From: Dehalococcoidia bacterium
GTDB taxonomy: Bacteria; Chloroflexota; Dehalococcoidia; DSTF01; JACRBR01
Assembly: GCA_041494685.1 (NCBI GenBank)
Contig: JBGQBE010000003.1
Span: forward strand, 1-64,000
Reading direction: 5' to 3'
Length of the DNA: 64,000 nt
Positions 1 to 11,310 of the stretch are shown piece by piece. The position numbers and the translations under genes were made by a program. Below the pieces are notes generated by a model. It made no database searches, had not been told where the DNA came from, and saw only the letters and a program-made list of their open reading frames with translations. Position 1 is the stretch's first letter; the number at the start of each line of letters is the position of its first letter.

Positions 1-141
1 GACGCACCTGCCCCGTATCTCCGCCATATCTCCGTCTTCTCCTGCACCGTCAACGCTGATCGGACCATCATTACCACCCCATCCTTCACGAGCAGTCTTA
101 GCCCGTTCGACGGGGTGGTGCGATCACCGCTTGAGACCGCC
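1..141 (-). mobile_element. Probable left end of an IS30-family insertion sequence: terminal IR at 141-115 plus the start of the transposase (ATG at 71, runs off the window edge)
   Basis: Minus strand reads GGCGGTCTCAAGCGGTGATCGCACCAC, resembling IS30-type IRs of high-GC bacteria. It is followed by the ORF MMVRSALTVQEKTEIWRRYGAGA.., resembling the N-terminal HTH of IS30 transposases. Only 23 codons are visible. Confidence 0.55.
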
Positions 142-256
142 GCTCATCGTGTTGGAATAAGGTGAATCGCCGGCTGATCCTCAGCCGCGTTGCGTTCGCC
201 GCGTTGCCGCAACAGGGCTTGCTTCGGGGTGCAGTTGCAGACGTGAGGTCTGGCGG

Positions 257-682
257 TCACGCGAGGTCGGCTACGCGTTCGGCGATGTCCTTGACGAGAT
301 CGACAACGGCAACGGGGCGCGCCTCGTTCCACGCCTGCACACATTGCTCGATGTCAGGTCTTGGATGCGCAGCGTCCCACAACGTCTCCGCAACGAAGTG
401 AGCGCCCCGACCAGTCTTCAGCGGCGCGATCGGTAGGACTCTCAAGATGGATCCGTAACGCAGAGTGGCATGCTCTCCGACTCGTTGGACGCTCAGCTCG
501 ATTGGTTGCACCAGATGAACCCGCCAGGAGTCGAATGCCGCCAGCCTCTCTTTGTCCGCTTGCATGAGGAGGGCCGCGCGCCATGCGGCGTCGACGGGTG
601 CCGCTCGTAGTTCATCCCCGAGGCGCGTCTGAATTTCGAGCGCCTCCAGCAATGCAGCACAGGTTTCCTCGTACGTCATCAA
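257..682 (-). CDS. hypothetical protein
   Basis: 141-aa ORF with protein-like composition in the accessory region; no recognisable motif. Confidence 0.45.
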   Translation of the reverse strand: MMTYEETCAALLEALEIQTRLGDELRAAPVDAAWRAALLMQADKERLAAFDSWRVHLVQPIELSVQRVGEHATLRYGSILRVLPIAPLKTGRGAHFVAETLWDAAHPRPDIEQCVQAWNEARPVAVVDLVKDIAERVADLA

Positions 683-808
683 GGTCGGTCCGCAGGTTGG
701 TTCGGAGTGCGCCGTCGGACACCTCTACCTGCTCCGAGAGTCGGCTCAGGCTCAGCGCAGATCGCGCGTGGCCGCGAGCGGTTCCAAGCTGTCTGCGAGC
801 CTTAATCG

Positions 809-1486
809 TTACCGGGCGGTGGCCGGCGGCACCGAAAGCGACCCGCTCGCCGTCGCGCGCGGCGCACGCTTCGGCGCTGACTGGGTGATAACGTAGCCGA
901 AGATGTACGCGCCCGTGGCGGCGACCAGCGCGAGCGACACGTAGAACACTCCGATCGCCACCGAGAAGTTCGCGTTCGACGTCAGATGGTCGACCATCCA
1001 GCTCAGATGGCTCTGCGATGCGACTTCGACCCCGAGCGTCAGTGGCGCCAGGTAGAGGACCGACCCGATCATCAAGAACCCGACGCTCAGCCGGTAATCG
1101 GCAGGGTTCTCGTCAGGGTCACGCACCATCTTGACCAGCAACGCCCACAACACGAAGACCGCGGACAACGGTGCCGTGATCGGCAGCGGGTTGTCGTGCA
1201 AGAGGTTTGGATAGAAGAAGAACAAGCTGACGATGAACGTGATGATCAGCACGCCGTCGCGGAGCAGCACGTACGAAAGCCAGAAGACATCGGCCGCGAA
1301 GCGCAGCGAGAGCTTGCGCAGCGTGCGGATGGCGTACGGCCGCATCAAGTAGAACGCGAGCGTGGCGATCCAGAACATGGGCAGCGCCGCCACGAGGGTC
1401 CCCACCATGAAGTCGCGAAAGCCGTCATGGAACGCCTGGCTAAGGGCGTTCGTCAGTTCGTCGGGGGTGAGTGCCAAGATTGTCAT
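809..1486 (-). CDS. multi-pass membrane protein of unknown function (paralog B)
   Basis: Start MTILALTPD at 1486 with a GAGGAGG RBS and an ATGA overlap with the ferredoxin stop; about 5 hydrophobic segments; clearly paralogous to 2004-2654. Confidence 0.85.
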   Translation of the reverse strand: MTILALTPDELTNALSQAFHDGFRDFMVGTLVAALPMFWIATLAFYLMRPYAIRTLRKLSLRFAADVFWLSYVLLRDGVLIITFIVSLFFFYPNLLHDNPLPITAPLSAVFVLWALLVKMVRDPDENPADYRLSVGFLMIGSVLYLAPLTLGVEVASQSHLSWMVDHLTSNANFSVAIGVFYVSLALVAATGAYIFGYVITQSAPKRAPRATASGSLSVPPATAR

Positions 1487-2004
1487 TTCGATCCTCCTCG
1501 TGGAGACTGTCCCGGCTTCGCGGGGCCTGCCGCCTTCGTCCATGTTCGCCAGACCTGCCAGGGCGCCACGCGCTTCGCGATGCGCCAGCGGAGGTCTTTG
1601 CCCCAGGGGTCGTGCGCCTCGCGCGGCTCCTGCATCTTTTTGCCTGCCCGCGTGTACGATGCCAGGGGTGCCCAACGGCCTCCGAGGTCGGGCGGCTCGA
1701 CCAGGATCGGCCCCTGCCGCGGAGCATGGGCCGGTGGCGTCGCGACCTGGCGGATCGAGATCGCCTCGGTCGGGCACTCCCGGACGCAAATCGTGCAGCC
1801 GTTACAGTGATCCACCTGGATGGGGACCGTCATCATCCAGTCAGAGACGGGAGCGCGAGACGGCGTGGCGCGCAGGAACGTGGCCTCGGGCCCGAAGCCG
1901 CGGACGCGCGTCATATCGAGCGTGTGGATCGGGCACACGTCCATGCAGATCCCGCAGTTGATGCAGGTCGCTTCCTCGACCGTGACCGCGAACTCCTTTT
2001 CCAT
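1483..2004 (-). CDS. 2x[4Fe-4S] dicluster ferredoxin with Pro/Trp-rich C-terminal extension
   Basis: Two CxxCxxCxxxCP motifs (CINCGICMDVCP, CNGCTICVRECP). Confidence 0.92.
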   Translation of the reverse strand: MEKEFAVTVEEATCINCGICMDVCPIHTLDMTRVRGFGPEATFLRATPSRAPVSDWMMTVPIQVDHCNGCTICVRECPTEAISIRQVATPPAHAPRQGPILVEPPDLGGRWAPLASYTRAGKKMQEPREAHDPWGKDLRWRIAKRVAPWQVWRTWTKAAGPAKPGQSPRGGSK

Positions 2005-2654
2005 CAGGACCTCGCGGCGCTGGTGTCCCCAGCGTCAGGCAAGTCGGCCGTCATCGCCGAGTGGAAGAACACAACATATCCAACGGCAACGAGTCCGAGT
2101 GATGCCGCGAGCGCCATGTTCACGTAGGTGAGGGCGGCCGCGAACACCGGGTGCTCTGACGAGATGAAGAGCGAACTGAAGCTGCTGATGTTGCCGAAGT
2201 CGGTCGCCTGGACACCGAGCAACGTCGGCACCAGGTACAGGACAGAGCCCAGCGCGATCAGCACGCTGACGGCGTAGAACGGGACGGGCTCATCGTCGGC
2301 GTCCCAGATGAGTTTGATCACGAGTGCTGCCAGTGCGCACACGGCCGCCACCCCGCCGGTGATCGGGAAGGCGTTCTGGATGAACGGGTCGACGAAGAAG
2401 AACTGGAAGCTCATCACAAAAATGACCACCAGCAAGAGGTCGCGGACGCTCGCGTAGGCCAGCCACCAGAGGTCGGCGCCCAGCCTGAGGCTGAATTTCG
2501 TGACGACCCGCAAGATGTACGGTCGCGCGAGGTGGATCGCGATCGCGGCGAACCACAGCATGGGTAGTGCGGCCACAACCGTTCCCTCGATGATCGATTC
2601 GCCGGAGCCCGTGATGGCGCCATATACGGCTTGGGTGACTTGATCAGGTGTCAT
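2004..2654 (-). CDS. multi-pass membrane protein of unknown function (paralog A)
   Basis: Start MTPDQV at 2654 with an AGGAGG RBS; TGATG overlap with the ferredoxin start; shares motifs with 809-1486. Confidence 0.85.
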   Translation of the reverse strand: MTPDQVTQAVYGAITGSGESIIEGTVVAALPMLWFAAIAIHLARPYILRVVTKFSLRLGADLWWLAYASVRDLLLVVIFVMSFQFFFVDPFIQNAFPITGGVAAVCALAALVIKLIWDADDEPVPFYAVSVLIALGSVLYLVPTLLGVQATDFGNISSFSSLFISSEHPVFAAALTYVNMALAASLGLVAVGYVVFFHSAMTADLPDAGDTSAARS

Positions 2655-3205
2655 ATCCTGCGCCCTCCTGTATCGAAAGATACTGGTCGAAAGGTACATG
2701 GACGTTTATATCCGCGCCCAGCTCGCGTTGAAAGCGCCGGGCGGCATGATCGGACAGGCCGTTCGGCTCCAACTCTTCTGTGCGTCTTCAAAGCAACGAT
2801 CGTGCCAACGCGAGGAGCGGCGCATCCGACGTGCGACGGCGGAGCGGATAGGGCCTGAGGACCCAGCAGCCCGTCGTAGGCCGCGCCGGAGGTGAAGTGG
2901 CGCGCGGACAGACATCACGAGAACGGATGCAATGAGCCGGAAGCCCTGCGCGGCGCGTTCGTCTACTCGAGCGGATCTTCGTACAGGGCGTGGCGAGGAT
3001 CGCCCCCATGGTGACGTACGCCGTTTCCACGGACCCTCTGAGCGGATGGTGGGCATTCGATGGCTGCGCACCGCCTCTTGGCGTGGGCTCCACGGTCCGT
3101 TGCGAGCCAACCAGCTCTTTGAGGACTCGTCTTGGAGCGCCGCGGCTATCGACTCCACATCCATTGCCGCCGGACCAACGTACTTGTGTTGTACGGAGGT
3201 GCAAT

Positions 3206-3673
3206 GTGAGCGATATCAACAAACGCGGATCGGGTGTGGTAGTGGTCGTCATCGCGCTTCTGGCAGTTGCCTGCGGCGGCAGCAGCTACGGCACGTCCAC
3301 GACGGCGAGCCTAGCAGGCTCGTCAGCCGCAAGTGGAAGTCTGCGCGTTGAGCAGATGGACTTTCGGTTCCAACCTCAAACGCTGAGTGCCGGAGCCGGC
3401 AAGGCGGCGACGATCGTGCTCGTGAACAGCGGTAGCGTGACGCACACGTTCACAATCGACGAGTTGGGTGTGGACAAGTCCGTCGCACCTGGCCAGACCG
3501 CCACGGTGAGCTTCACTCCCACCAAAGGAGGTGATCTCACGTTCTACTGCCGCTTCCACCGTGGCTCAGGGATGACGGGCACCCTCAGGGTCTCCGGTGC
3601 TGCCAGCGTCGCGCCCGCGAAGGCGACGCCGTCTTCTAGCGGCGGAGGTTCCAGCGGAAGCTACGGCTACTAG
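3206..3673 (+). CDS. cupredoxin-domain lipoprotein (type-1 copper site)
   Basis: GTG start after GGAGGT; lipobox LAVAC; copper ligands H(TFT)...C-RF-H-RGSG-M. Confidence 0.85.
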   Translation: MSDINKRGSGVVVVVIALLAVACGGSSYGTSTTASLAGSSAASGSLRVEQMDFRFQPQTLSAGAGKAATIVLVNSGSVTHTFTIDELGVDKSVAPGQTATVSFTPTKGGDLTFYCRFHRGSGMTGTLRVSGAASVAPAKATPSSSGGGSSGSYGY

Positions 3674-3800
3674 GTCACGCACCATGAGGTTCTCTGTACT
3701 GTAGGCTCTGTGCGCGGCGGACGGCTGACCGACTATGAGGTGGCGGCGCAACAGGATTGGAACACGGCGTGGGAGTCCTCTATCAGGGACCGATGCGGTT

Positions 3801-3848
3801 CTTCGGGAACCGAGGGTCGGGGTTCGAATCCCTCCGGGCGTGCCGCTT
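3801..3848 (+). pseudogene. 3' half of tRNA-Arg(UCG), att-like remnant copy 1
   Basis: CTTCGGGAACCGAGGGTCGGGGTTCGAATCCCTCCGGGCGTGCC contains the anticodon loop, T-arm (TTCGAAT) and 3' acceptor strand; no 5' acceptor strand or D-arm upstream. Confidence 0.8.
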
Positions 3849-4021
3849 TTCAGGATCGAAACAAGGCCGCATACACGCCGGATCGGCGATCGCCGTATTC
3901 TCGTTCGGATTGCGGGTGAACAGAGATCATTGCTGGACGACCCACCAAGTCAGACGACGCCGCGCCATCTGCCATGCGTCGCGCGCGCCACGGCGTACTA
4001 GCGGGGTGCGCGGCTCGTCGC

Positions 4022-4909
4022 TCAGGCGACGGCGCTGCGGAACCGGCGCGTCGCAAAGGTCATCGTCACGGTGGCGAGGCCGAGCAGGATGGCGAGCGCG
4101 AGGAGGATGGTGACGCCGACACTGTGGTCGGTCGCCGCGGCGGGTCCGTTGAGCAGCACGCGCATGGAGTTGATGGTGTAGGTCACCGGATTGACGCGGG
4201 CCACCATCTGCATCCAGTGAGGGAGCAGGGCGATCGGCAGCTGCGCCGAGCTCGTGAAGAGCAACGGAAGCGTCAGGAAGTTGCCGAGCAGGAACGTGGC
4301 CTCGGTGCTGCGCGTCGTGAGGGCGATAAAGACGTTGAACCCCATCAACACCAGCGCGAAGAGCATCGCGATGGCCAGCGCGCCAAGGACGCCGCCGATC
4401 CCGTAGTAGAACGAGATGTGAGGCGTCTGGAAGCCGCCGATCGCCCAGCCGATGAGTACGACCAGCACGATTTGGAGCGTCATGCGTGTCAGGTCGCCAA
4501 GGATGCGTCCGAGCAGGATCGCCAGTCGATTGATCGGCGTTGTCAGGAGCTTGTCGAGGAAGCCGCTGTCGATGTCGGTAATCATGCCTACGCCGGACTG
4601 TCCGGCGCCGAAGAGGACGGACTGCAGCATCACCGTGGGGATGAAGAACTGCAGGTAGCTGACGTTGCCGAACTGCTGCGCCGCGCCCGGGAAGCGGGCG
4701 ATGCGAGAGAACATCTGGCCGAAGAGCACAAGCCAGATGAGCGGCTGGACGAGTGAGAACACGATGATGGTGGGCTGGCGGGAGAGCCGCTTCATCTGCC
4801 GGACGTACAGCGTTGCCGTCTCGCTCGCCAGCTTCGGCACGCCGCGCGGCAAGGCGCCCGCCGGCACAGGCATTGCGGCACCCGGAGCGGTGATGGTGTC
4901 CTCGCTCAT
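4022..4909 (-). CDS. ABC-2 type exporter permease (DrrB-like)
   Basis: About 6 TM segments; FLDKLLTTPINR and NPVTY motifs; downstream of the ATPase gene. Confidence 0.9.
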   Translation of the reverse strand: MSEDTITAPGAAMPVPAGALPRGVPKLASETATLYVRQMKRLSRQPTIIVFSLVQPLIWLVLFGQMFSRIARFPGAAQQFGNVSYLQFFIPTVMLQSVLFGAGQSGVGMITDIDSGFLDKLLTTPINRLAILLGRILGDLTRMTLQIVLVVLIGWAIGGFQTPHISFYYGIGGVLGALAIAMLFALVLMGFNVFIALTTRSTEATFLLGNFLTLPLLFTSSAQLPIALLPHWMQMVARVNPVTYTINSMRVLLNGPAAATDHSVGVTILLALAILLGLATVTMTFATRRFRSAVA

Positions 4910-4928
4910 GCGTGCGGTCCCTTCGGCA

Positions 4929-5966
4929 TTACGGACGGCGTCCGGCGCGCGGGCCCATGCCCGGGCGCATGAATCTCTGGTTGCGCCAGTTCTGGACCGG
5001 CGCATCTTCGCGTATCCGCTCACCGGTGTACTTGAGGAACACGTCGTCGAGCGTGGGAGACGTGAGCGTCATCTCATCGACGTAGAGCCCGGCCTCGTCG
5101 AGCGCGCGGACGATGCGGGGCAGGGAGCGCCCTCCCTCCGTTGCCGTCACGACGAGGGTCGAGCCGGACTCGCTGACGCCGCGGACGTACGGGCTGCCCT
5201 CGAGGAGCGCGGCGGCGCTGCGGCGGTCGCGCTCCGTCTGTGCGGCGTCGCCCTTGAACGTCAGGTTGATGATGCCGCCGCCGAGCTCGGCCTTCAGGCC
5301 GGCCGGGCTGCCGCTCGCGATGATCTGTCCGTGGTCGATGATCGCCAAGCGATCGCAGAGGCGGTCGGCCTCTTCGAGGTAGTGGGTGGTGAGGAAGATA
5401 GTGAGGCGCTCCCGCTTGTTGAGGTCTTCGAGGTAGCTCCAGATGCCGGCGCGGTTCTGCGGATCCAGGCCGGTCGTCGGCTCGTCGAGGAAGAGGAGCT
5501 GCGGGCGATGGATGAGCCCCGTCGCGAGGTCGAGGCGCTTTCGCATGCCGCCGGAGTACGAGCCGGCGATGCGATCGGCATCGACGGCGAGGTCGACGAG
5601 TTCGAGCAGCTCGTCGATGCGGCGGCGCAACGTCGGCGGGTCCATGTGGTAGAGGCGCCCCTGTAACTGGAGATTCTCACGGCCGGTGAGCTCGTCGTCG
5701 ACGCCGACTTCCTGAGCCGAGTAGCCGATGAGCCGCCGGATCAGGTTCGGGTCGGCGGCGACGTCGTGACCGAACACGCGGGCGGTGCCGCCGGTCGCGC
5801 GCAGGAGGGTGATGAGGATCTTGATCGTCGTCGATTTTCCGGCGCCATTCGGGCCGAGGAAGCCGAAGAATTCGCCCTCGCCGACTTCGAAGGAGATGCC
5901 GCGCACGGCCTCGGTGCCATCCGGGTACGTCTTGTAGAGGTCTTTGACTTCGATGACTGCCGTCAT
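4929..5966 (-). CDS. ABC exporter ATP-binding protein (DrrA-like)
   Basis: Walker A GPNGAGKS, signature YSGGM, Walker B LFLDEPTTGLD, TTHY. Confidence 0.95.
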   Translation of the reverse strand: MTAVIEVKDLYKTYPDGTEAVRGISFEVGEGEFFGFLGPNGAGKSTTIKILITLLRATGGTARVFGHDVAADPNLIRRLIGYSAQEVGVDDELTGRENLQLQGRLYHMDPPTLRRRIDELLELVDLAVDADRIAGSYSGGMRKRLDLATGLIHRPQLLFLDEPTTGLDPQNRAGIWSYLEDLNKRERLTIFLTTHYLEEADRLCDRLAIIDHGQIIASGSPAGLKAELGGGIINLTFKGDAAQTERDRRSAAALLEGSPYVRGVSESGSTLVVTATEGGRSLPRIVRALDEAGLYVDEMTLTSPTLDDVFLKYTGERIREDAPVQNWRNQRFMRPGMGPRAGRRP

Positions 5967-9348: not shown

Positions 9349-10508
9349 GGGTCGTCATCGTCCTTCCCACCTACAACGAACGCGCGAACATCGAACCGCT
9401 GATCGCGGCGCTGCAGACGGCGTGCGCGGAGACGCGGCACCGCTGCGAGGTCCTGGTCGTCGACGACAGCTCGCCCGACGGCACCGGCGACGTCGTCCGC
9501 GGCCTGCAGCAGCGCTACGACAACCTGCAGCTGCTGAGCGGCAAGAAGCAGGGCCTTGGCGTGGCGTACGCCCGCGGCATCGACCACGCGCTGCGCAAGA
9601 TGGGCGCCGACGTGATCGTCCACATGGACGCGGACTTCTCCCACGATCCCGCCGATGTGCCGCGGCTGGTGGCGAAGATCGACGAGGGGTACGACTTCGT
9701 GGTGGGGACGCGATACATGGAGGGCGGCGGCCTGCCGGGGGACTGGGGCTGGCATCGACGGCTGATCTCGCGGCTGGCGAACTTCGGCGCGCGGATCATC
9801 GCCGGGCTCACGGCGCTGCATGACTGCACGAACGGGTATCGCGCGTACCGGGCTTCCGTGCTGCTGCCGGTGGACCTGTCGTCGGCGCCACGAGGATACG
9901 CGGTGCTGACGTTCCTGGCGTACCACGGGCTCATGAACGGCCGCGGTGTGGCCGAGGTCCCGATCGTATTTTCCCAGCGCGCGCAGGGGACGAGCAAGCT
10001 GCGACTCAACGACGTCACCGAGTTCTTCCTGAACGCGTGGTGGATCCGCTACGACCGCCGCGAGCGGTTCCTCCGTTACGCCAGCGGGGGACTCTCCAGC
10101 GTCGCAGCCAACCTGGCGACCATCGCGCTGCTGTATTACGTCGCGGGCGTGCCCGCGCCGGCCGCCTCACCGCTGGCGATCGAGGCGTCGATCCTGTTCA
10201 GCATCGGCTGGCGCAGGATCTGGGGGCGGGCGCTGGGGCGGCGTCAGGGCGGGCTCGGCGCGTTCGGCGTCCGGACGCACGTGCTGGCCGTCCCGCCGTC
10301 CCTGCTGACATTCGGCGTGTTCTTCGTATTGACGCGCACAGGTGTGCCGGTCGTAGCAAGCCAGGCGGCGGGCATCGTGCCGGCGCTGATCTGGAACTAC
10401 TTCATTGGCGACCGCGGCCTGGACATGCTGCGGCGGCTGAATGTGATGGGCGACCTGTCGAAGATCGAACCCTCAGCAACAGATCGGACCTCCGATGGGC
10501 TCCGCTGA
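9345..10508 (+). CDS. GT2 polyprenol-phosphate glycosyltransferase (DPM1-like) fused to GtrA-like domain
   Basis: TTG start overlapping the upstream stop; PTYNE, VDDSSPDGT, HMDADFSHDP, DCTNGYRAY; hydrophobic C-terminal domain ending WNY. Confidence 0.9.
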   Translation: MRVVIVLPTYNERANIEPLIAALQTACAETRHRCEVLVVDDSSPDGTGDVVRGLQQRYDNLQLLSGKKQGLGVAYARGIDHALRKMGADVIVHMDADFSHDPADVPRLVAKIDEGYDFVVGTRYMEGGGLPGDWGWHRRLISRLANFGARIIAGLTALHDCTNGYRAYRASVLLPVDLSSAPRGYAVLTFLAYHGLMNGRGVAEVPIVFSQRAQGTSKLRLNDVTEFFLNAWWIRYDRRERFLRYASGGLSSVAANLATIALLYYVAGVPAPAASPLAIEASILFSIGWRRIWGRALGRRQGGLGAFGVRTHVLAVPPSLLTFGVFFVLTRTGVPVVASQAAGIVPALIWNYFIGDRGLDMLRRLNVMGDLSKIEPSATDRTSDGLR

Positions 10509-11310
10509 CCGCGACGGGCATGGCCCGGTGACCACCGACACGTATTTGCGGCGGTACCTGCGCCAATCGCCAGCGGCGCTCGCGCTCTGGCGTTCGATTG
10601 AGGCGCGGCATTTCGCATCGGTCCCGATGCGGCGACCGCTGCTCGACGTCGGCGCCGGATTCGGCGAGTTCGGCCGCGCTTTCTTCGACGAGCCGGCGGA
10701 CGTCGGACTCGACATCTCGCGCCGAGACCTCCGCATGTGCCGGCAGACCGGCGTGTATCGGAGCCTGGTGCAGGGAGACGCGCGCGTGCTGCCGTTCGCG
10801 GACGGGGCGTTCAACACGGTCATGAGCGTGAGCGTGCTCGAGCACATACCCGGCGTCGACCCGTTCTTCGGCGAGGCGTTTCGCGTATTGCGGCCAGGCG
10901 GCACGCTGGTATTCTCCGTGCCGCTCGCGGACATGGACGCGTACATGCTGTTCCCGCCAGCCGCGCGGCGCGTCGGGCTATCGGGTCTGGCCGACGCGTA
11001 TGTCAGGCGCGTGCATCGCGCGTTCAAGCACGTGAACCTGCACCAGCCGGAGTACTGGCTGGTGCACGTCGAACACAGCGGGTTCGAGATCGTGGAGCAG
11101 CGGCGGATCATCTCGCGCACAGCGACGCGGCTGTTCGACCTCGGCCTGCCGACAGCGTTGCTCTCGCAAATCGGGCGGGTGCGGACGGGGCACCGCGCCG
11201 TGTGGCACCCGGAACCGCTCGTGAGCCTGTGGGCGGCCGCGCTGCGGCCCTTCGTTGAGGCGCCGGAGAGCGACGGCAGCAATCTGCTCGTCGTGGCGCG
11301 GCGCCCTTAG
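10495..11310 (+). CDS. class I SAM-dependent methyltransferase
   Basis: LDVGAGFG, GDARVLPF, VLEHI, RVLRPGG; alternative GTG start at 10528. Confidence 0.9.
   Translation: MGSADRDGHGPVTTDTYLRRYLRQSPAALALWRSIEARHFASVPMRRPLLDVGAGFGEFGRAFFDEPADVGLDISRRDLRMCRQTGVYRSLVQGDARVLPFADGAFNTVMSVSVLEHIPGVDPFFGEAFRVLRPGGTLVFSVPLADMDAYMLFPPAARRVGLSGLADAYVRRVHRAFKHVNLHQPEYWLVHVEHSGFEIVEQRRIISRTATRLFDLGLPTALLSQIGRVRTGHRAVWHPEPLVSLWAAALRPFVEAPESDGSNLLVVARRP

What the first reader, a model, noticed from the sequence alone, without database searches (positions are those of the whole stretch)
809..2654. Operon of two paralogous unknown membrane proteins flanking a dicluster ferredoxin
Seen: three translationally coupled genes (TGATG and ATGA overlaps). 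The two outer proteins share TPD, GTxVAALPMxW, RPY, KxSLRxxADxxWLxY, RD, PIT, KxxxDxD and GSVLYLxPxxLGV, so they are paralogs. The middle gene carries two CxxCxxCxxxCP motifs plus a long Pro/Trp-rich tail. I see no His conserved between the paralogs, which argues against a b-type cytochrome, while conserved R/D/K residues sit near the TM helices. Inference: a heterodimeric membrane complex with a dedicated 2x[4Fe-4S] subunit (redox-coupled transport, sensing or electron transfer). I do not recognise it as a described system.
Basis: partly seen in the sequence, partly recalled or inferred. Interest (0 to 1): 0.75.

Follow-up and report, generated by a model that had tools for sequence, protein, structure and literature searches.

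The report
Undescribed ferredoxin–membrane protein redox module
Three tightly coupled genes encode two related membrane proteins of a family nobody has described and a special iron-sulfur ferredoxin that always travels with them, which in most relatives is fused to an NAD(P)H-using flavoenzyme, so this is probably an unstudied way of passing electrons to or from the cell membrane.

Summary
On the minus strand lie A (2004-2654, 216 aa), a 2x[4Fe-4S] ferredoxin (1483-2004, 173 aa) and B (809-1486, 225 aa), joined by TGATG and ATGA overlaps. A and B are 37% identical (E 1e-43). Neither matches Pfam, NCBIfam or any solved fold.

The ferredoxin link is conserved, but the gene order is not. Among 80 species-representative genome loci, 9 are A-Fd-B and 1 is Fd-A-B. 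In 65 the same ferredoxin module, tail included, is the N-terminus of a GltD/NfnB-like NAD(P)H iron-sulfur flavoprotein just upstream of A-B. Four are cut by a contig end and one keeps only a ferredoxin relic. Forty-four distant single-copy relatives in metagenomes also sit beside this ferredoxin type. A and B form two parallel clades from one old duplication.

Best reading: an A/B heterodimer docks the dedicated ferredoxin on its cytoplasmic face and links low-potential cytoplasmic electrons to a membrane acceptor, most likely quinone. The complex is inferred from genomics, and the acceptor is a guess.

I found no description of the module in my literature searches. Two earlier notes of this scan report the same family.

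The parts
2004..2654 (-). Gene A: 216-aa membrane protein with five predicted TM helices. Family signature: GT..A.LP..W / RPY / KFSLRLGAD.WW..Y / RD / P.T / K...D.D / P...GV.
   Evidence: ORF and translation. AF2 model has mean pLDDT 84 with long helices 3-42, 57-81, 100-116, 123-153 and 169-197. No Pfam or NCBIfam hit. 633 homologs, all named 'hypothetical' where named.
1483..2004 (-). Dedicated 2x[4Fe-4S] ferredoxin (173 aa). Core is residues 1-100, with the family-specific insert LDMTR...WMM.P.Q between the two cluster motifs. The conserved tail W.PL..YTR...DPWG...W+...R..PWQVWRTW follows.
   Evidence: Pfam Fer4 and Fer4_7 above cutoff. Below cutoff for PorD, NuoI, RnfB and PsaC. Signature conserved in 17 relatives and in distant ones. 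AF2 gives a confident core and a tail with pLDDT<50.
809..1486 (-). Gene B: 225-aa paralog of A with the same five-helix layout. B-clade invariants include R54, R132, E154 and Q158.
   Evidence: Translation. BLASTP against A gives 37% identity, E 1e-43. B-type alignment. B forms its own clade with support 100/92.
2663..2669 (-). Shine-Dalgarno-like AGGAGGG, 8 nt before A's ATG.
   Evidence: Read from the sequence.
1493..1499 (-). Shine-Dalgarno-like GAGGAGG inside the end of the ferredoxin gene, before B's ATG. It points to translational coupling.
   Evidence: Read from the sequence.

Best explanation
The three genes encode one membrane-bound electron-transfer module.

Proposed assembly. A and B come from a single old duplication and form a heterodimer of five-helix subunits. 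Their topology is N-terminus outside, C-terminus inside. The basic RPY/KFSLRLGAD loop and the acidic K...D.D loop lie on the cytoplasmic face. The dedicated dicluster ferredoxin docks there through its family-specific insert (LDMTR...WMM.P) and its Trp/Arg-rich tail, which probably folds only on binding. This would bring a [4Fe-4S] cluster close to a pocket lined by the conserved Tyr, Trp, Arg-Asp and Lys residues.

Proposed electron path. Low-potential cytoplasmic electrons pass through the two clusters to a membrane acceptor, most likely the quinone pool. In most lineages the entry point is built in. The ferredoxin is fused to a GltD/NfnB-type module, giving NAD(P)H -> FAD -> 2x[4Fe-4S] -> ferredoxin 2x[4Fe-4S] -> A/B.

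The window's lineage. Here the ferredoxin is free-standing. It would be served by soluble partners, for example the stand-alone NfnB/GltD-like protein encoded elsewhere in this genome.

Shown: the genes, the paralogy, the cluster motifs, the conserved linkage, the fusion in relatives, and the absence of heme or Fe-S ligands in A and B.

Inferred: physical assembly, topology, the docking site, the direction of electron flow, and quinone as the acceptor.
For: Gene structure. The genes overlap and have SD sites, and A and B are paralogs.

Linkage in genomes (80 species-representative loci).
- The second paralog follows the first in 78. The other two contigs end just after A.
- A ferredoxin of this type is between A and B in 9 loci and just upstream in 1.
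- It is fused to Fer4_20+Pyr_redox_2 just upstream in 65.
- Four more loci are cut by the contig start but show the flavoprotein's C-terminal part.
- The one remaining locus (L051) keeps a 23-codon ferredoxin relic abutting A.

Linkage in metagenomes (80 loci found with distant members).
- 43 single-copy membrane genes have the ferredoxin immediately downstream and 1 has it divergently upstream.
- 3 are cut by a contig end, and 1 (L172) has a truncated ferredoxin relic.
- Of the 32 two-paralog loci, 26 show the ferredoxin and/or the flavoprotein and 6 are cut.

Flanks. They are not conserved beyond the cassette.

Ferredoxin signature. It is shared across subfamilies.

Tree. A clade 97/86, B clade 100/92, single-copy outgroup 100/99, with matching subclades.

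Topology. Members with signal peptides or N-terminal extracytoplasmic domains place the start of helix 1 outside. Lys and Arg cluster after helix 1 and in the C-tail.

Cofactor ligands. No invariant His or Cys in A or B.

Precedents.
- The fused partner resembles NfnB, StnC and GltD.
- In DPD a GltD-like module passes electrons to an 8Fe-ferredoxin domain (passages of PMC8097209). The ferredoxin core model hits that DPD domain, PorD and NdhI.
- Stand-alone NfnB-like proteins act as ferredoxin:NADP+ oxidoreductases (passages of PMC12221290).
- This genome has such a stand-alone protein at G000:C3:125277-126527.
Against: - No known quinone-site motif or fold was recognised in A or B, so quinone is a choice by parsimony.
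- Conservation runs through the whole membrane thickness. It includes the outer-face residues G24, T25, P31, W34, P97, P143, G147 and V148, and a mid-helix Arg-Asp pair. That is more than a passive anchor or a one-sided quinone pocket needs, and it fits ion or substrate translocation.
- Some family members carry extracytoplasmic His/Asp/Glu repeats or a Met/His-rich Ig-like domain, which hints at metal handling.
- The window's clade has no NAD(P)H module in the operon, and none was seen within the up to 7 kb held on either side in its relatives. The electron donor here is unknown.
- The shortest ferredoxins of the family (91-105 aa) lack the tail, so the tail cannot be the universal docking element.
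- No expression or biochemical data exist.
Confidence: 0.5

Rival explanations
1. Redox-coupled ion translocation. A/B is an ion-conducting heterodimer. Electron flow through the ferredoxin (NAD(P)H to an acceptor) drives H+ or Na+ export. Alternatively the ion gradient drives uphill reduction of the low-potential clusters, in the manner of Rnf or Nqr but with a minimal subunit set.
For: - An invariant Arg-Asp pair sits in mid helix 2, and K114, D118 and D120 lie at the inner end of helix 3, in both paralogs and in distant members.
- Conservation spans both membrane faces.
- The layout of a paralogous membrane pair plus a ferredoxin-like subunit recalls RnfA/RnfE with RnfB.
- NAD(P)H-to-quinone transfer would release enough energy to pump (general knowledge).
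Against: - No Rnf/Nqr Pfam match at E<=1.
- A and B have no conserved Cys for an intramembrane Fe-S centre.
- Both paralogs are predicted to have the same topology, not an inverted one.
- A terminal acceptor is still needed.
Confidence: 0.17
2. Transport with a reductive step. A/B is a transporter or channel for a metal or other redox-active solute. The ferredoxin reduces the cargo, or gates the transporter, at the cytoplasmic face.
For: - Some family members have N-terminal extracytoplasmic His/Asp/Glu-rich repeats (P0140, P0143, P0130, P0147) or a Met/His-rich Ig-like domain (P0133).
- Residues on the outer face are conserved.
- In the window a cupredoxin lipoprotein gene lies divergently upstream.
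Against: - The cupredoxin and all other flanks are not conserved, even among close relatives.
- The extensions occur in a minority of members.
- Fusing a four-cluster NAD(P)H flavoprotein chain to the ferredoxin is a heavy device for gating a transporter.
- No transporter fold was recognised.
Confidence: 0.13
3. Membrane tether for reduction of a lipid-soluble substrate other than quinone, for example a polyprenyl or lipid head group, or a redox-sensing device that reports the NAD(P)H or ferredoxin state to the membrane.
For: - Frequent neighbours in relatives are sensor kinases, NarL-type regulators and universal stress proteins.
- A and B have no cofactor ligands.
Against: - No output domain is fused to A or B, and no real fusion was found among longer proteins.
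- The regulators are neighbours only in some lineages.
- The strong conservation of charged intramembrane residues suggests chemistry or translocation, not tethering.
Confidence: 0.1
4. The three genes are merely neighbours: an ordinary soluble ferredoxin between two unrelated-function membrane proteins, with no complex.
For: No physical evidence of binding exists. The ferredoxin core is a common fold.
Against: - The linkage survives gene rearrangement (Fd between, upstream, downstream, or fused to another protein) across phyla and across GC contents of 0.32-0.70.
- The ferredoxin carries a family-specific insert found only with these membrane genes among the loci examined.
- Even decayed loci keep ferredoxin relics next to the membrane gene.
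Confidence: 0.05

Closest known systems
NrfC/NrfD-, PsrB/PsrC- and DmsB/DmsC-type modules (iron-sulfur ferredoxin-like subunit on a cofactor-free integral membrane quinone-site subunit). The comparison is recalled from general knowledge.
   Same: An Fe-S protein with ferredoxin-type cluster motifs is paired genetically with a membrane protein that has no heme or Fe-S ligands of its own. This is the functional analogy I favour.
   Different: No sequence match to NrfD and no specific fold match. The subunits have five helices rather than eight or more. There are two clusters rather than four. The ferredoxin has no export signal, so it is cytoplasmic.
Fumarate reductase FrdABCD of E. coli (flavoprotein, Fe-S subunit and two small heme-free anchors). 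Recalled; the review PMC8097209 (passages) describes the two hydrophobic anchor subunits of succinate dehydrogenase/fumarate reductase.
   Same: The overall plan seen in the relatives: flavoprotein -> Fe-S chain -> two small hydrophobic subunits without obligatory heme.
   Different: No homology. The flavin module here is GltD/NfnB-type and NAD(P)H-linked, not a succinate/fumarate site. The anchors have five helices each and belong to a new family.
RnfA/RnfE (NqrE/NqrD) with RnfB
   Same: A paralogous pair of small polytopic membrane proteins encoded with a ferredoxin-like subunit in a ferredoxin/NAD(P)H-linked system.
   Different: RnfB model score is 33.8 against a cutoff of 68.7. No Rnf-Nqr Pfam hit for A or B. 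No conserved Cys. No RnfC/D/G-type domain turned up among the neighbour ORFs that I scanned with Pfam; I did not search for them directly.
NuoI/NdhI and PsaC (dicluster ferredoxins that are fixed subunits of membrane complexes)
   Same: An 8Fe ferredoxin core with extensions that fasten it to membrane subunits. NdhI chains are among the weak fold hits of the core model (6l7o_I, 6hum_I).
   Different: Scores are far below family cutoffs: NuoI 38.2 against 113, PsaC 26.7 against 130.65. The insert and tail are specific to this family.
GltD/NfnB/StnC-type NAD(P)H iron-sulfur flavoproteins, the Fd-GltD fusion proteins AegA/YgfT, and stand-alone NfnB-like ferredoxin:NADP+ oxidoreductases (PMC8097209 and PMC12221290, passages only)
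   Same: The partner fused to the ferredoxin in 65 of 80 genome loci has Fer4_20+Pyr_redox_2. It hits StnC, NfnB and GltD structures at E 1e-110 to 1e-65. AegA has the same ferredoxin-then-GltD domain order.
   Different: This module is absent from the window's operon. The relatives' protein is below every NCBIfam cutoff: PRK12771 468 against 516, AegA 270 against 1003. In the passages I read (those that hold 'membrane' or 'GltD-like'), the 2021 review names glutamate synthase, DPD, Nfn and AegA as the GltD-like enzymes and links none of them to membrane subunits.

Membership tests
Dicluster [4Fe-4S] ferredoxin domain (Pfam Fer4 / Fer4_7) | Two CxxCxxCxxxCP motifs and a score above the gathering threshold | tested here: met
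   Motifs at residues 14-25 and 67-78. PF00037 scores 43 bits against 21.1 and PF12838 41.7 against 27.
PorD/KorD delta subunit (TIGR02179) | Whole-protein score at or above the curated cutoff of 60.05 | tested here: not met
   45.8 bits.
NuoI / NdhI (TIGR01971) | Score at or above 113.05 | tested here: not met
   38.2 bits.
RnfB (TIGR01944) | Score at or above 68.7 | tested here: not met
   33.8 bits.
RnfA/RnfE - NqrD/NqrE membrane pair | Match to the Rnf-Nqr family model, and conserved Cys for the intramembrane Fe centre (the Cys feature is recalled) | tested here: not met
   No Pfam family at E<=1 for A or B. A has one Cys and B has none. No invariant Cys.
NrfD/PsrC-type quinone-site membrane subunit | Sequence match to the NrfD family | tested here: not met
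   No Pfam hit at E<=1.
NrfD/PsrC-type quinone-site membrane subunit | Shared fold | tested here: inconclusive
   Foldseek found nothing at E<=1e-3. VIA-align found only generic helical bundles, Z<=9.8.
b-type cytochrome membrane subunits (cytochrome b/b6, NarI, heme-bearing SdhC/D) | Conserved His pairs that ligate heme | tested here: not met
   No invariant His in the 16 A-type or 17 B-type sequences. Cytochrome b6 rows in Foldseek have E 0.4-1 and TM ~0.26.
GltD/NfnB-like NAD(P)H iron-sulfur flavoprotein as part of the operon | Fer4_20 plus Pyr_redox_2 domains encoded in the cassette | tested here: not met
   Absent from window 809-2654 and its flanks. Present in relatives, and elsewhere in this genome as a stand-alone gene.
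AegA/YgfT (for the relatives' fusion protein) | NCBIfam equivalog score at or above 1003 / 1154 | tested here: not met
   270.5 and 234.6 bits, with only the GltD part aligned.
Unnamed membrane-protein/ferredoxin module (family defined here and in two earlier notes of this scan) | Five-helix protein with the RPY / LR.GAD.WW / RD / K...D.D signature, encoded next to a dicluster ferredoxin with the LDMTR...WMM.P insert | tested here: met
   Window genes. Linkage counts. Signature in distant members.

The most novel reading that the evidence does not exclude
A new class of respiratory-type membrane enzyme. It would be a minimal three-component NAD(P)H/ferredoxin:quinone oxidoreductase, possibly ion-translocating. 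Its membrane part is a protein family unrelated to any known quinone-reactive or ion-pumping subunit. It is widespread in soil Chloroflexota and Dormibacterota, with single-copy cousins in other bacteria. In several lineages it sits beside hypoxia- or stress-type genes (GAF kinase/NarL regulator, universal stress proteins, phosphoketolase-acetate kinase).
Probability: 0.3. Interest if true: 0.85.

Novelty: new variant of a known kind. Interest (0 to 1): 0.68.

Why it matters
Membrane-bound enzymes that connect NAD(P)H or ferredoxin to the membrane (complex I, NDH-2, Nqr, Rnf) set the energy budget of a cell. Few kinds are known.

Here a ferredoxin with its own signature is locked genetically to a membrane-protein family that has no Pfam model, no solved relative and no name. 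In most carriers it is also fused to a complete NAD(P)H-FAD-[4Fe-4S] entry module.

The family was found in 454 stretches of species-representative genomes. These are mostly Ktedonobacteria, Limnocylindria, Dormibacterota and Tepidiformaceae-like Dehalococcoidia, which are abundant but poorly understood soil and sediment bacteria.

If it is a quinone reductase or an ion pump, it adds a new entry to the list of respiratory modules and would change metabolic reconstructions of these phyla. If it is something else (metal handling, sensing), the tight ferredoxin coupling is still unexplained biology.

One carrier is a cultured Ktedonobacter, so the question can be tested at the bench.

Tried and rejected
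- **Complex prediction** of A + B + ferredoxin: best score 0.23 against a mark of 0.32, no verdict. It counts neither way.
- **Fold searches with the A model.** Foldseek against PDB found nothing at E<=1e-3. VIA-align against 48,161 chains found only designed or generic four-helix bundles, Z<=9.8, in the noise range for helical proteins.
- **ESM Atlas**: only unnamed Chloroflexota clusters. The nearest named clusters scored 0.77 (chance level).
- **Pfam at E<=1** on 20 distant members: no family shared by more than 4 members, none significant.
- **Search for longer, fused forms**: one hit, P0272, is an A-B read-through with a garbled middle. P0142, P0213, P0268, P0183 and P0125 look likewise. 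I treat these as frameshifted gene calls, not natural fusions.
- **RNA evidence**: no RNA holder listed. I did not lay reads.
- **Promoter and terminator scan**: 0 promoter-like sites. The 3 terminator-like sites lie inside the genes (1.6 expected by chance).
- **Rfam** on window 1-4000: nothing.
- **Earlier findings** by place and by sequence: nothing.
- **Literature searches**: none of the listed papers describes a membrane partner for a GltD/NfnB-like protein or this membrane family. Only listings were seen, except for passages of PMC8097209 and PMC12221290. Subscription journals are not covered.
- **b-type cytochrome idea:** rejected, no conserved His.
- **Rnf-like intramembrane Fe-S idea:** rejected, no conserved Cys.
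- **A conserved third partner in the window's clade:** rejected, because nothing beyond the three genes is shared with L032-L038, L041, L060 or L084.
Full report
**1. What is in the window**

The region holds three genes on the minus strand.
- Gene A runs 2654->2004 and encodes 216 aa.
- The ferredoxin gene runs 2004->1483 and encodes 173 aa.
- Gene B runs 1486->809 and encodes 225 aa.

A's stop and the ferredoxin's start share one base (TGATG). The ferredoxin's stop and B's start overlap by four bases (ATGA). Purine-rich Shine-Dalgarno-like sites precede A and B.

A and B align over 195 residues without a gap at 37% identity, E 1e-43. The middle protein has two CxxCxxCxxxCP motifs and passes Pfam Fer4 and Fer4_7. 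It is below the curated cutoffs of PorD, NuoI, RnfB, PsaC and every other NCBIfam ferredoxin model.

The window starts at base 1 of its contig, so only 808 bases lie downstream of B.

**2. The membrane proteins belong to no described family**

- A and B match no Pfam or NCBIfam model at E<=1. Twenty distant family members share no Pfam family either.
- An AlphaFold2 model of A (mean pLDDT 84, pTM 0.77) has five long helices.
- Foldseek against the PDB gave nothing at E<=1e-3. VIA-align against 48,161 chains gave only generic helical bundles, Z<=9.8, which the tool's own notes place in the noise range for helical proteins.
- The ESM Atlas returned only unnamed Chloroflexota clusters.
- A word-indexed search found 633 homologs at E<=1e-3. 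All are 'hypothetical' where named, from Dehalococcoidia, Tepidiformaceae, other Chloroflexota and Dormibacteria.
- A full HMMER profile search of 1.84 billion cluster representatives found only 269 at E<=1e-3. The family is real but small.
- In a sample of 301 genomes of the phylum, 28 carried it, and 26 of those carried two adjacent copies.

**3. The link to the ferredoxin is conserved, but the gene order is not**

*Genome loci.* A scan of one genome per species found 454 stretches encoding a relative, and I analysed the best 80.
- The second paralog follows the first in 78 loci. The other two contigs end just after A.
- Nine loci have the window's A-Fd-B order (L032-L038, L041, L060).
- One has Fd-A-B (L084).
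- In 65 loci the homolog of residues 5-155 of the window's ferredoxin, conserved tail included, is the N-terminal part of a protein of about 660 aa that ends just before A. About six of these are split by apparent frameshifts.
- Four loci are cut by the contig start but still show the C-terminal part of that protein.
- The single locus with neither (L051, a second copy in a genome that also has a complete one) keeps a 23-codon ferredoxin relic abutting A.

The large protein is Fer4 dicluster + tail + Fer4_20 + Pyr_redox_2. Its flavoprotein part is nearest to StnC, NfnB and GltD structures (E 1e-110 to 1e-65). It is below all NCBIfam cutoffs, including AegA.

*Metagenome loci.* I then scanned metagenomes with an alignment of the most distant members. 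Of the 80 loci:
- 43 have a single membrane gene with this ferredoxin type immediately downstream;
- 1 has the ferredoxin divergently upstream;
- 3 are cut by a contig end;
- 1 (L172) has a truncated ferredoxin relic;
- 32 have two paralogs: 5 A-Fd-B, 12 with Fd-GltD upstream, 7 showing only the GltD part at a contig start, 2 Fd-A-B, and 6 cut.

GC content of these loci ranges from 0.32 to 0.70.

*Flanks.* Beyond the cassette the flanks differ. The conserved unit is therefore 'membrane protein(s) + this ferredoxin'.

**4. The ferredoxin is a dedicated subtype**

All forms share an insert between the two cluster motifs: LDMTR, then a variable acidic stretch, then WMM.P.Q. The long forms also share the tail W.PL..YTR...DPWG...W+...R..WQ.WR+W. 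In the fusions this tail is the linker to the flavoprotein. The shortest ferredoxins (91-105 aa), found with one single-copy subfamily, lack the tail.

In an AlphaFold2 model the core (residues 1-100) is confident, while the well-conserved tail has pLDDT<50. That is the usual picture for a segment that folds on a partner; this is an inference.

The core's weak fold hits (E 6e-3 to 3e-2) are dicluster modules that sit inside larger enzymes: polyferredoxins, the 8Fe domain of DPD, PorD and NdhI.

**5. One duplication, inherited together**

I built a maximum-likelihood tree of 47 rows. These were the window plus 18 of the two-paralog loci, with A and B from each, and 9 of the 44 single-copy loci. 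The other loci were left out to keep the tree small.

The tree puts all A in one clade (97/86), all B in another (100/92) and the single-copy genes outside (100/99). The same subclades appear in both halves. This is what an obligate heteromer predicts, but it does not prove one.

**6. Topology and chemistry**

- Several family members start with a signal peptide or an extracytoplasmic domain directly before helix 1 (P0129, P0133, P0140, P0143, P0187, P0218).
- In A and B the N-terminal 23 residues have no Lys or Arg. The loop after helix 1 (RPY..R...K...R) and the C-tails are basic.
- I therefore place the N-terminus outside. The RPY/KFSLRLGAD loop, the K...D.D loop and the C-terminus face the cytoplasm, where a ferredoxin without an export signal and an NAD(P)H enzyme must be.
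- No His or Cys is invariant. This rules out b-hemes and an Rnf/Nqr-type intramembrane iron centre.
- The invariant polar residues are R44, Y46, R57, D61, W64, Y67, R71, D72, K114, D118 and D120. Outer-face residues (G24, T25, P31, W34, P97, P143, G147, V148) are also invariant.

**7. Mechanism**

The most economical reading is a membrane electron-transfer module. The ferredoxin docks on the cytoplasmic face of an A/B heterodimer and hands electrons to a lipid-soluble acceptor, most likely quinone, bound among the conserved Tyr, Trp, Arg-Asp and Lys residues.

In most lineages the donor is built in. The chain would be NAD(P)H -> FAD -> two [4Fe-4S] of the Fer4_20 domain -> two [4Fe-4S] of the ferredoxin. 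The same chain logic is described for DPD in passages of the review PMC8097209.

Passages of PMC12221290 report that stand-alone NfnB-like proteins are ferredoxin:NADP+ oxidoreductases. This makes a free ferredoxin plus a separate NfnB-like enzyme a plausible split version. This genome encodes such a 485-aa protein about 123 kb away on the same contig, and a second homolog on another contig. That pairing is speculation.

Rivals that the evidence does not exclude:
- ion translocation coupled to the electron flow, supported by the mid-membrane Arg-Asp pair and conservation on both faces;
- a transporter with a reductive step, supported by His/acidic or Met/His-rich outer extensions in some members;
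- a tether or sensor.

**8. Context in relatives**

- In Limnocylindria and Dormibacterota loci, a GAF-HisKA_3 kinase and/or a NarL-type regulator lie just upstream.
- In Ktedonobacter sp. SOSP1-85, phosphoketolase and acetate kinase precede the operon on the same strand, and a tandem universal stress protein follows.
- One Tepidiformaceae locus has a hemerythrin-domain gene just upstream.

This looks like a stress or oxygen-limitation setting. It is lineage-specific and is not seen in the window, where the nearest neighbour is a divergently oriented cupredoxin lipoprotein gene.

**9. Comparison with what is known, and novelty**

The module works most like the pairs of a ferredoxin-like Fe-S subunit with a cofactor-free membrane subunit (NrfCD, PsrBC). 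In its fused form it resembles the flavoprotein/Fe-S/two-anchor plan of fumarate reductase. It is a member of none of these: every sequence criterion tested failed, and the fold comparison is inconclusive.

In the passages I read (those that hold 'membrane' or 'GltD-like'), the 2021 review names glutamate synthase, DPD, Nfn and AegA as the GltD-like enzymes and links none of them to membrane subunits. Five full-text searches found no description of the membrane family or of a membrane partner for such flavoproteins. Subscription journals are not covered by those searches.

Two earlier notes of this scan (e1-1408368, e1-1361499) describe the fused form in other genomes and reached the same reading. 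They are not independent evidence, but I re-derived their main claims here.

I rate it a new variant of a known kind: a membrane-bound Fe-S oxidoreductase module built on a new protein family. The window shows the less common, unfused A-Fd-B form.

**10. Limits**

Nothing here shows binding, cofactors, activity or expression. The complex prediction gave no verdict, and no RNA data set holds the region.

Noticed in passing
window 2990-3673 (+): A cupredoxin-like protein (Pfam Cupredoxin_1 E 2.5e-16, Copper-bind E 6.5e-7) with a lipoprotein-like signal (…LLAVACGG) and a C/H/M copper-site pattern. It is divergently oriented to the operon. It is not present next to the cassette in close relatives.
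   Followed up: partly
window 4022-5023 (-) and 4929-5966 (-): These look like an ABC-2-type permease and an ABC ATPase (Walker A GPNGAGKST). This is read from the translations only and was not scanned against families.
   Followed up: no
window 257-682 (-): A 141-aa ORF lies 126 nt downstream of B on the same strand. It has no Pfam match and no counterpart in relatives' loci. It is probably not part of the module.
   Followed up: partly
G000:C3:125277-126527 (-) = L112:1555-3012 (-); also G000:C1:157651-158814: Stand-alone NfnB/GltD-like proteins (485 aa in L112) lie elsewhere in the window's genome. They are candidate NAD(P)H-linked partners for the free ferredoxin. A cytochrome-c-motif membrane protein lies next to the first.
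   Followed up: partly
L100:1482-4873, L068:2798-4766, L057:2044-4047, L075:4232-4960: A GAF-HisKA_3 sensor kinase plus a NarL/LuxR-type response regulator lie directly upstream of the Fd-GltD-A-B operon in two Limnocylindria loci (L100, L068). Only the kinase was scanned in L057 and only the regulator in the Dormibacterota locus L075. In the ORF clustering, the kinase family occurred in 19 of 80 loci.
   Followed up: partly
L040:972-4703 and 9491-10513 (Ktedonobacter sp. SOSP1-85): Phosphoketolase and acetate kinase lie directly upstream on the same strand, and a tandem universal stress protein lies downstream of the operon. Stress-protein genes occur in 17 of 80 loci. This suggests a link to oxygen limitation or stress.
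   Followed up: partly
proteins P0140, P0143, P0130, P0147, P0129, P0133, P0135: These family members have a signal peptide plus extracytoplasmic His/Asp/Glu-rich repeats or an Ig-like, Met/His-rich domain in front of helix 1. This may indicate metal binding on the outer face. L193 and L170 pair such a protein with a ferredoxin and a B-like paralog.
   Followed up: partly
L051:6950 (+) and L172:2572 (+): Truncated ferredoxin relics (23 and about 48 codons) abut membrane genes that otherwise lack a partner. The gene pair decays together.
   Followed up: yes
L148:2064-4806 (+); L144:1755-4922 (+); L172:226-1188 (+): In single-copy loci, a 2-oxoacid:ferredoxin oxidoreductase alpha/beta pair (L148) or multiheme cytochromes c (L144, L172) lie just upstream of the membrane gene. 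These are possible lineage-specific electron partners.
   Followed up: no
L035, L084, L093 (record titles): Contigs carrying the cassette are labelled Caulobacteraceae, Candidatus Solibacter and Nitrosotalea MAGs, yet their genes group with Chloroflexota/Dormibacterota versions. This may reflect binning errors or transfers. I did not resolve it.
   Followed up: no
window 700-2800: Near-identical DNA (0.61-0.73 of the sampled words) is held by contigs of three further sediment-metagenome runs from different studies, besides the probable source run.
   Followed up: no
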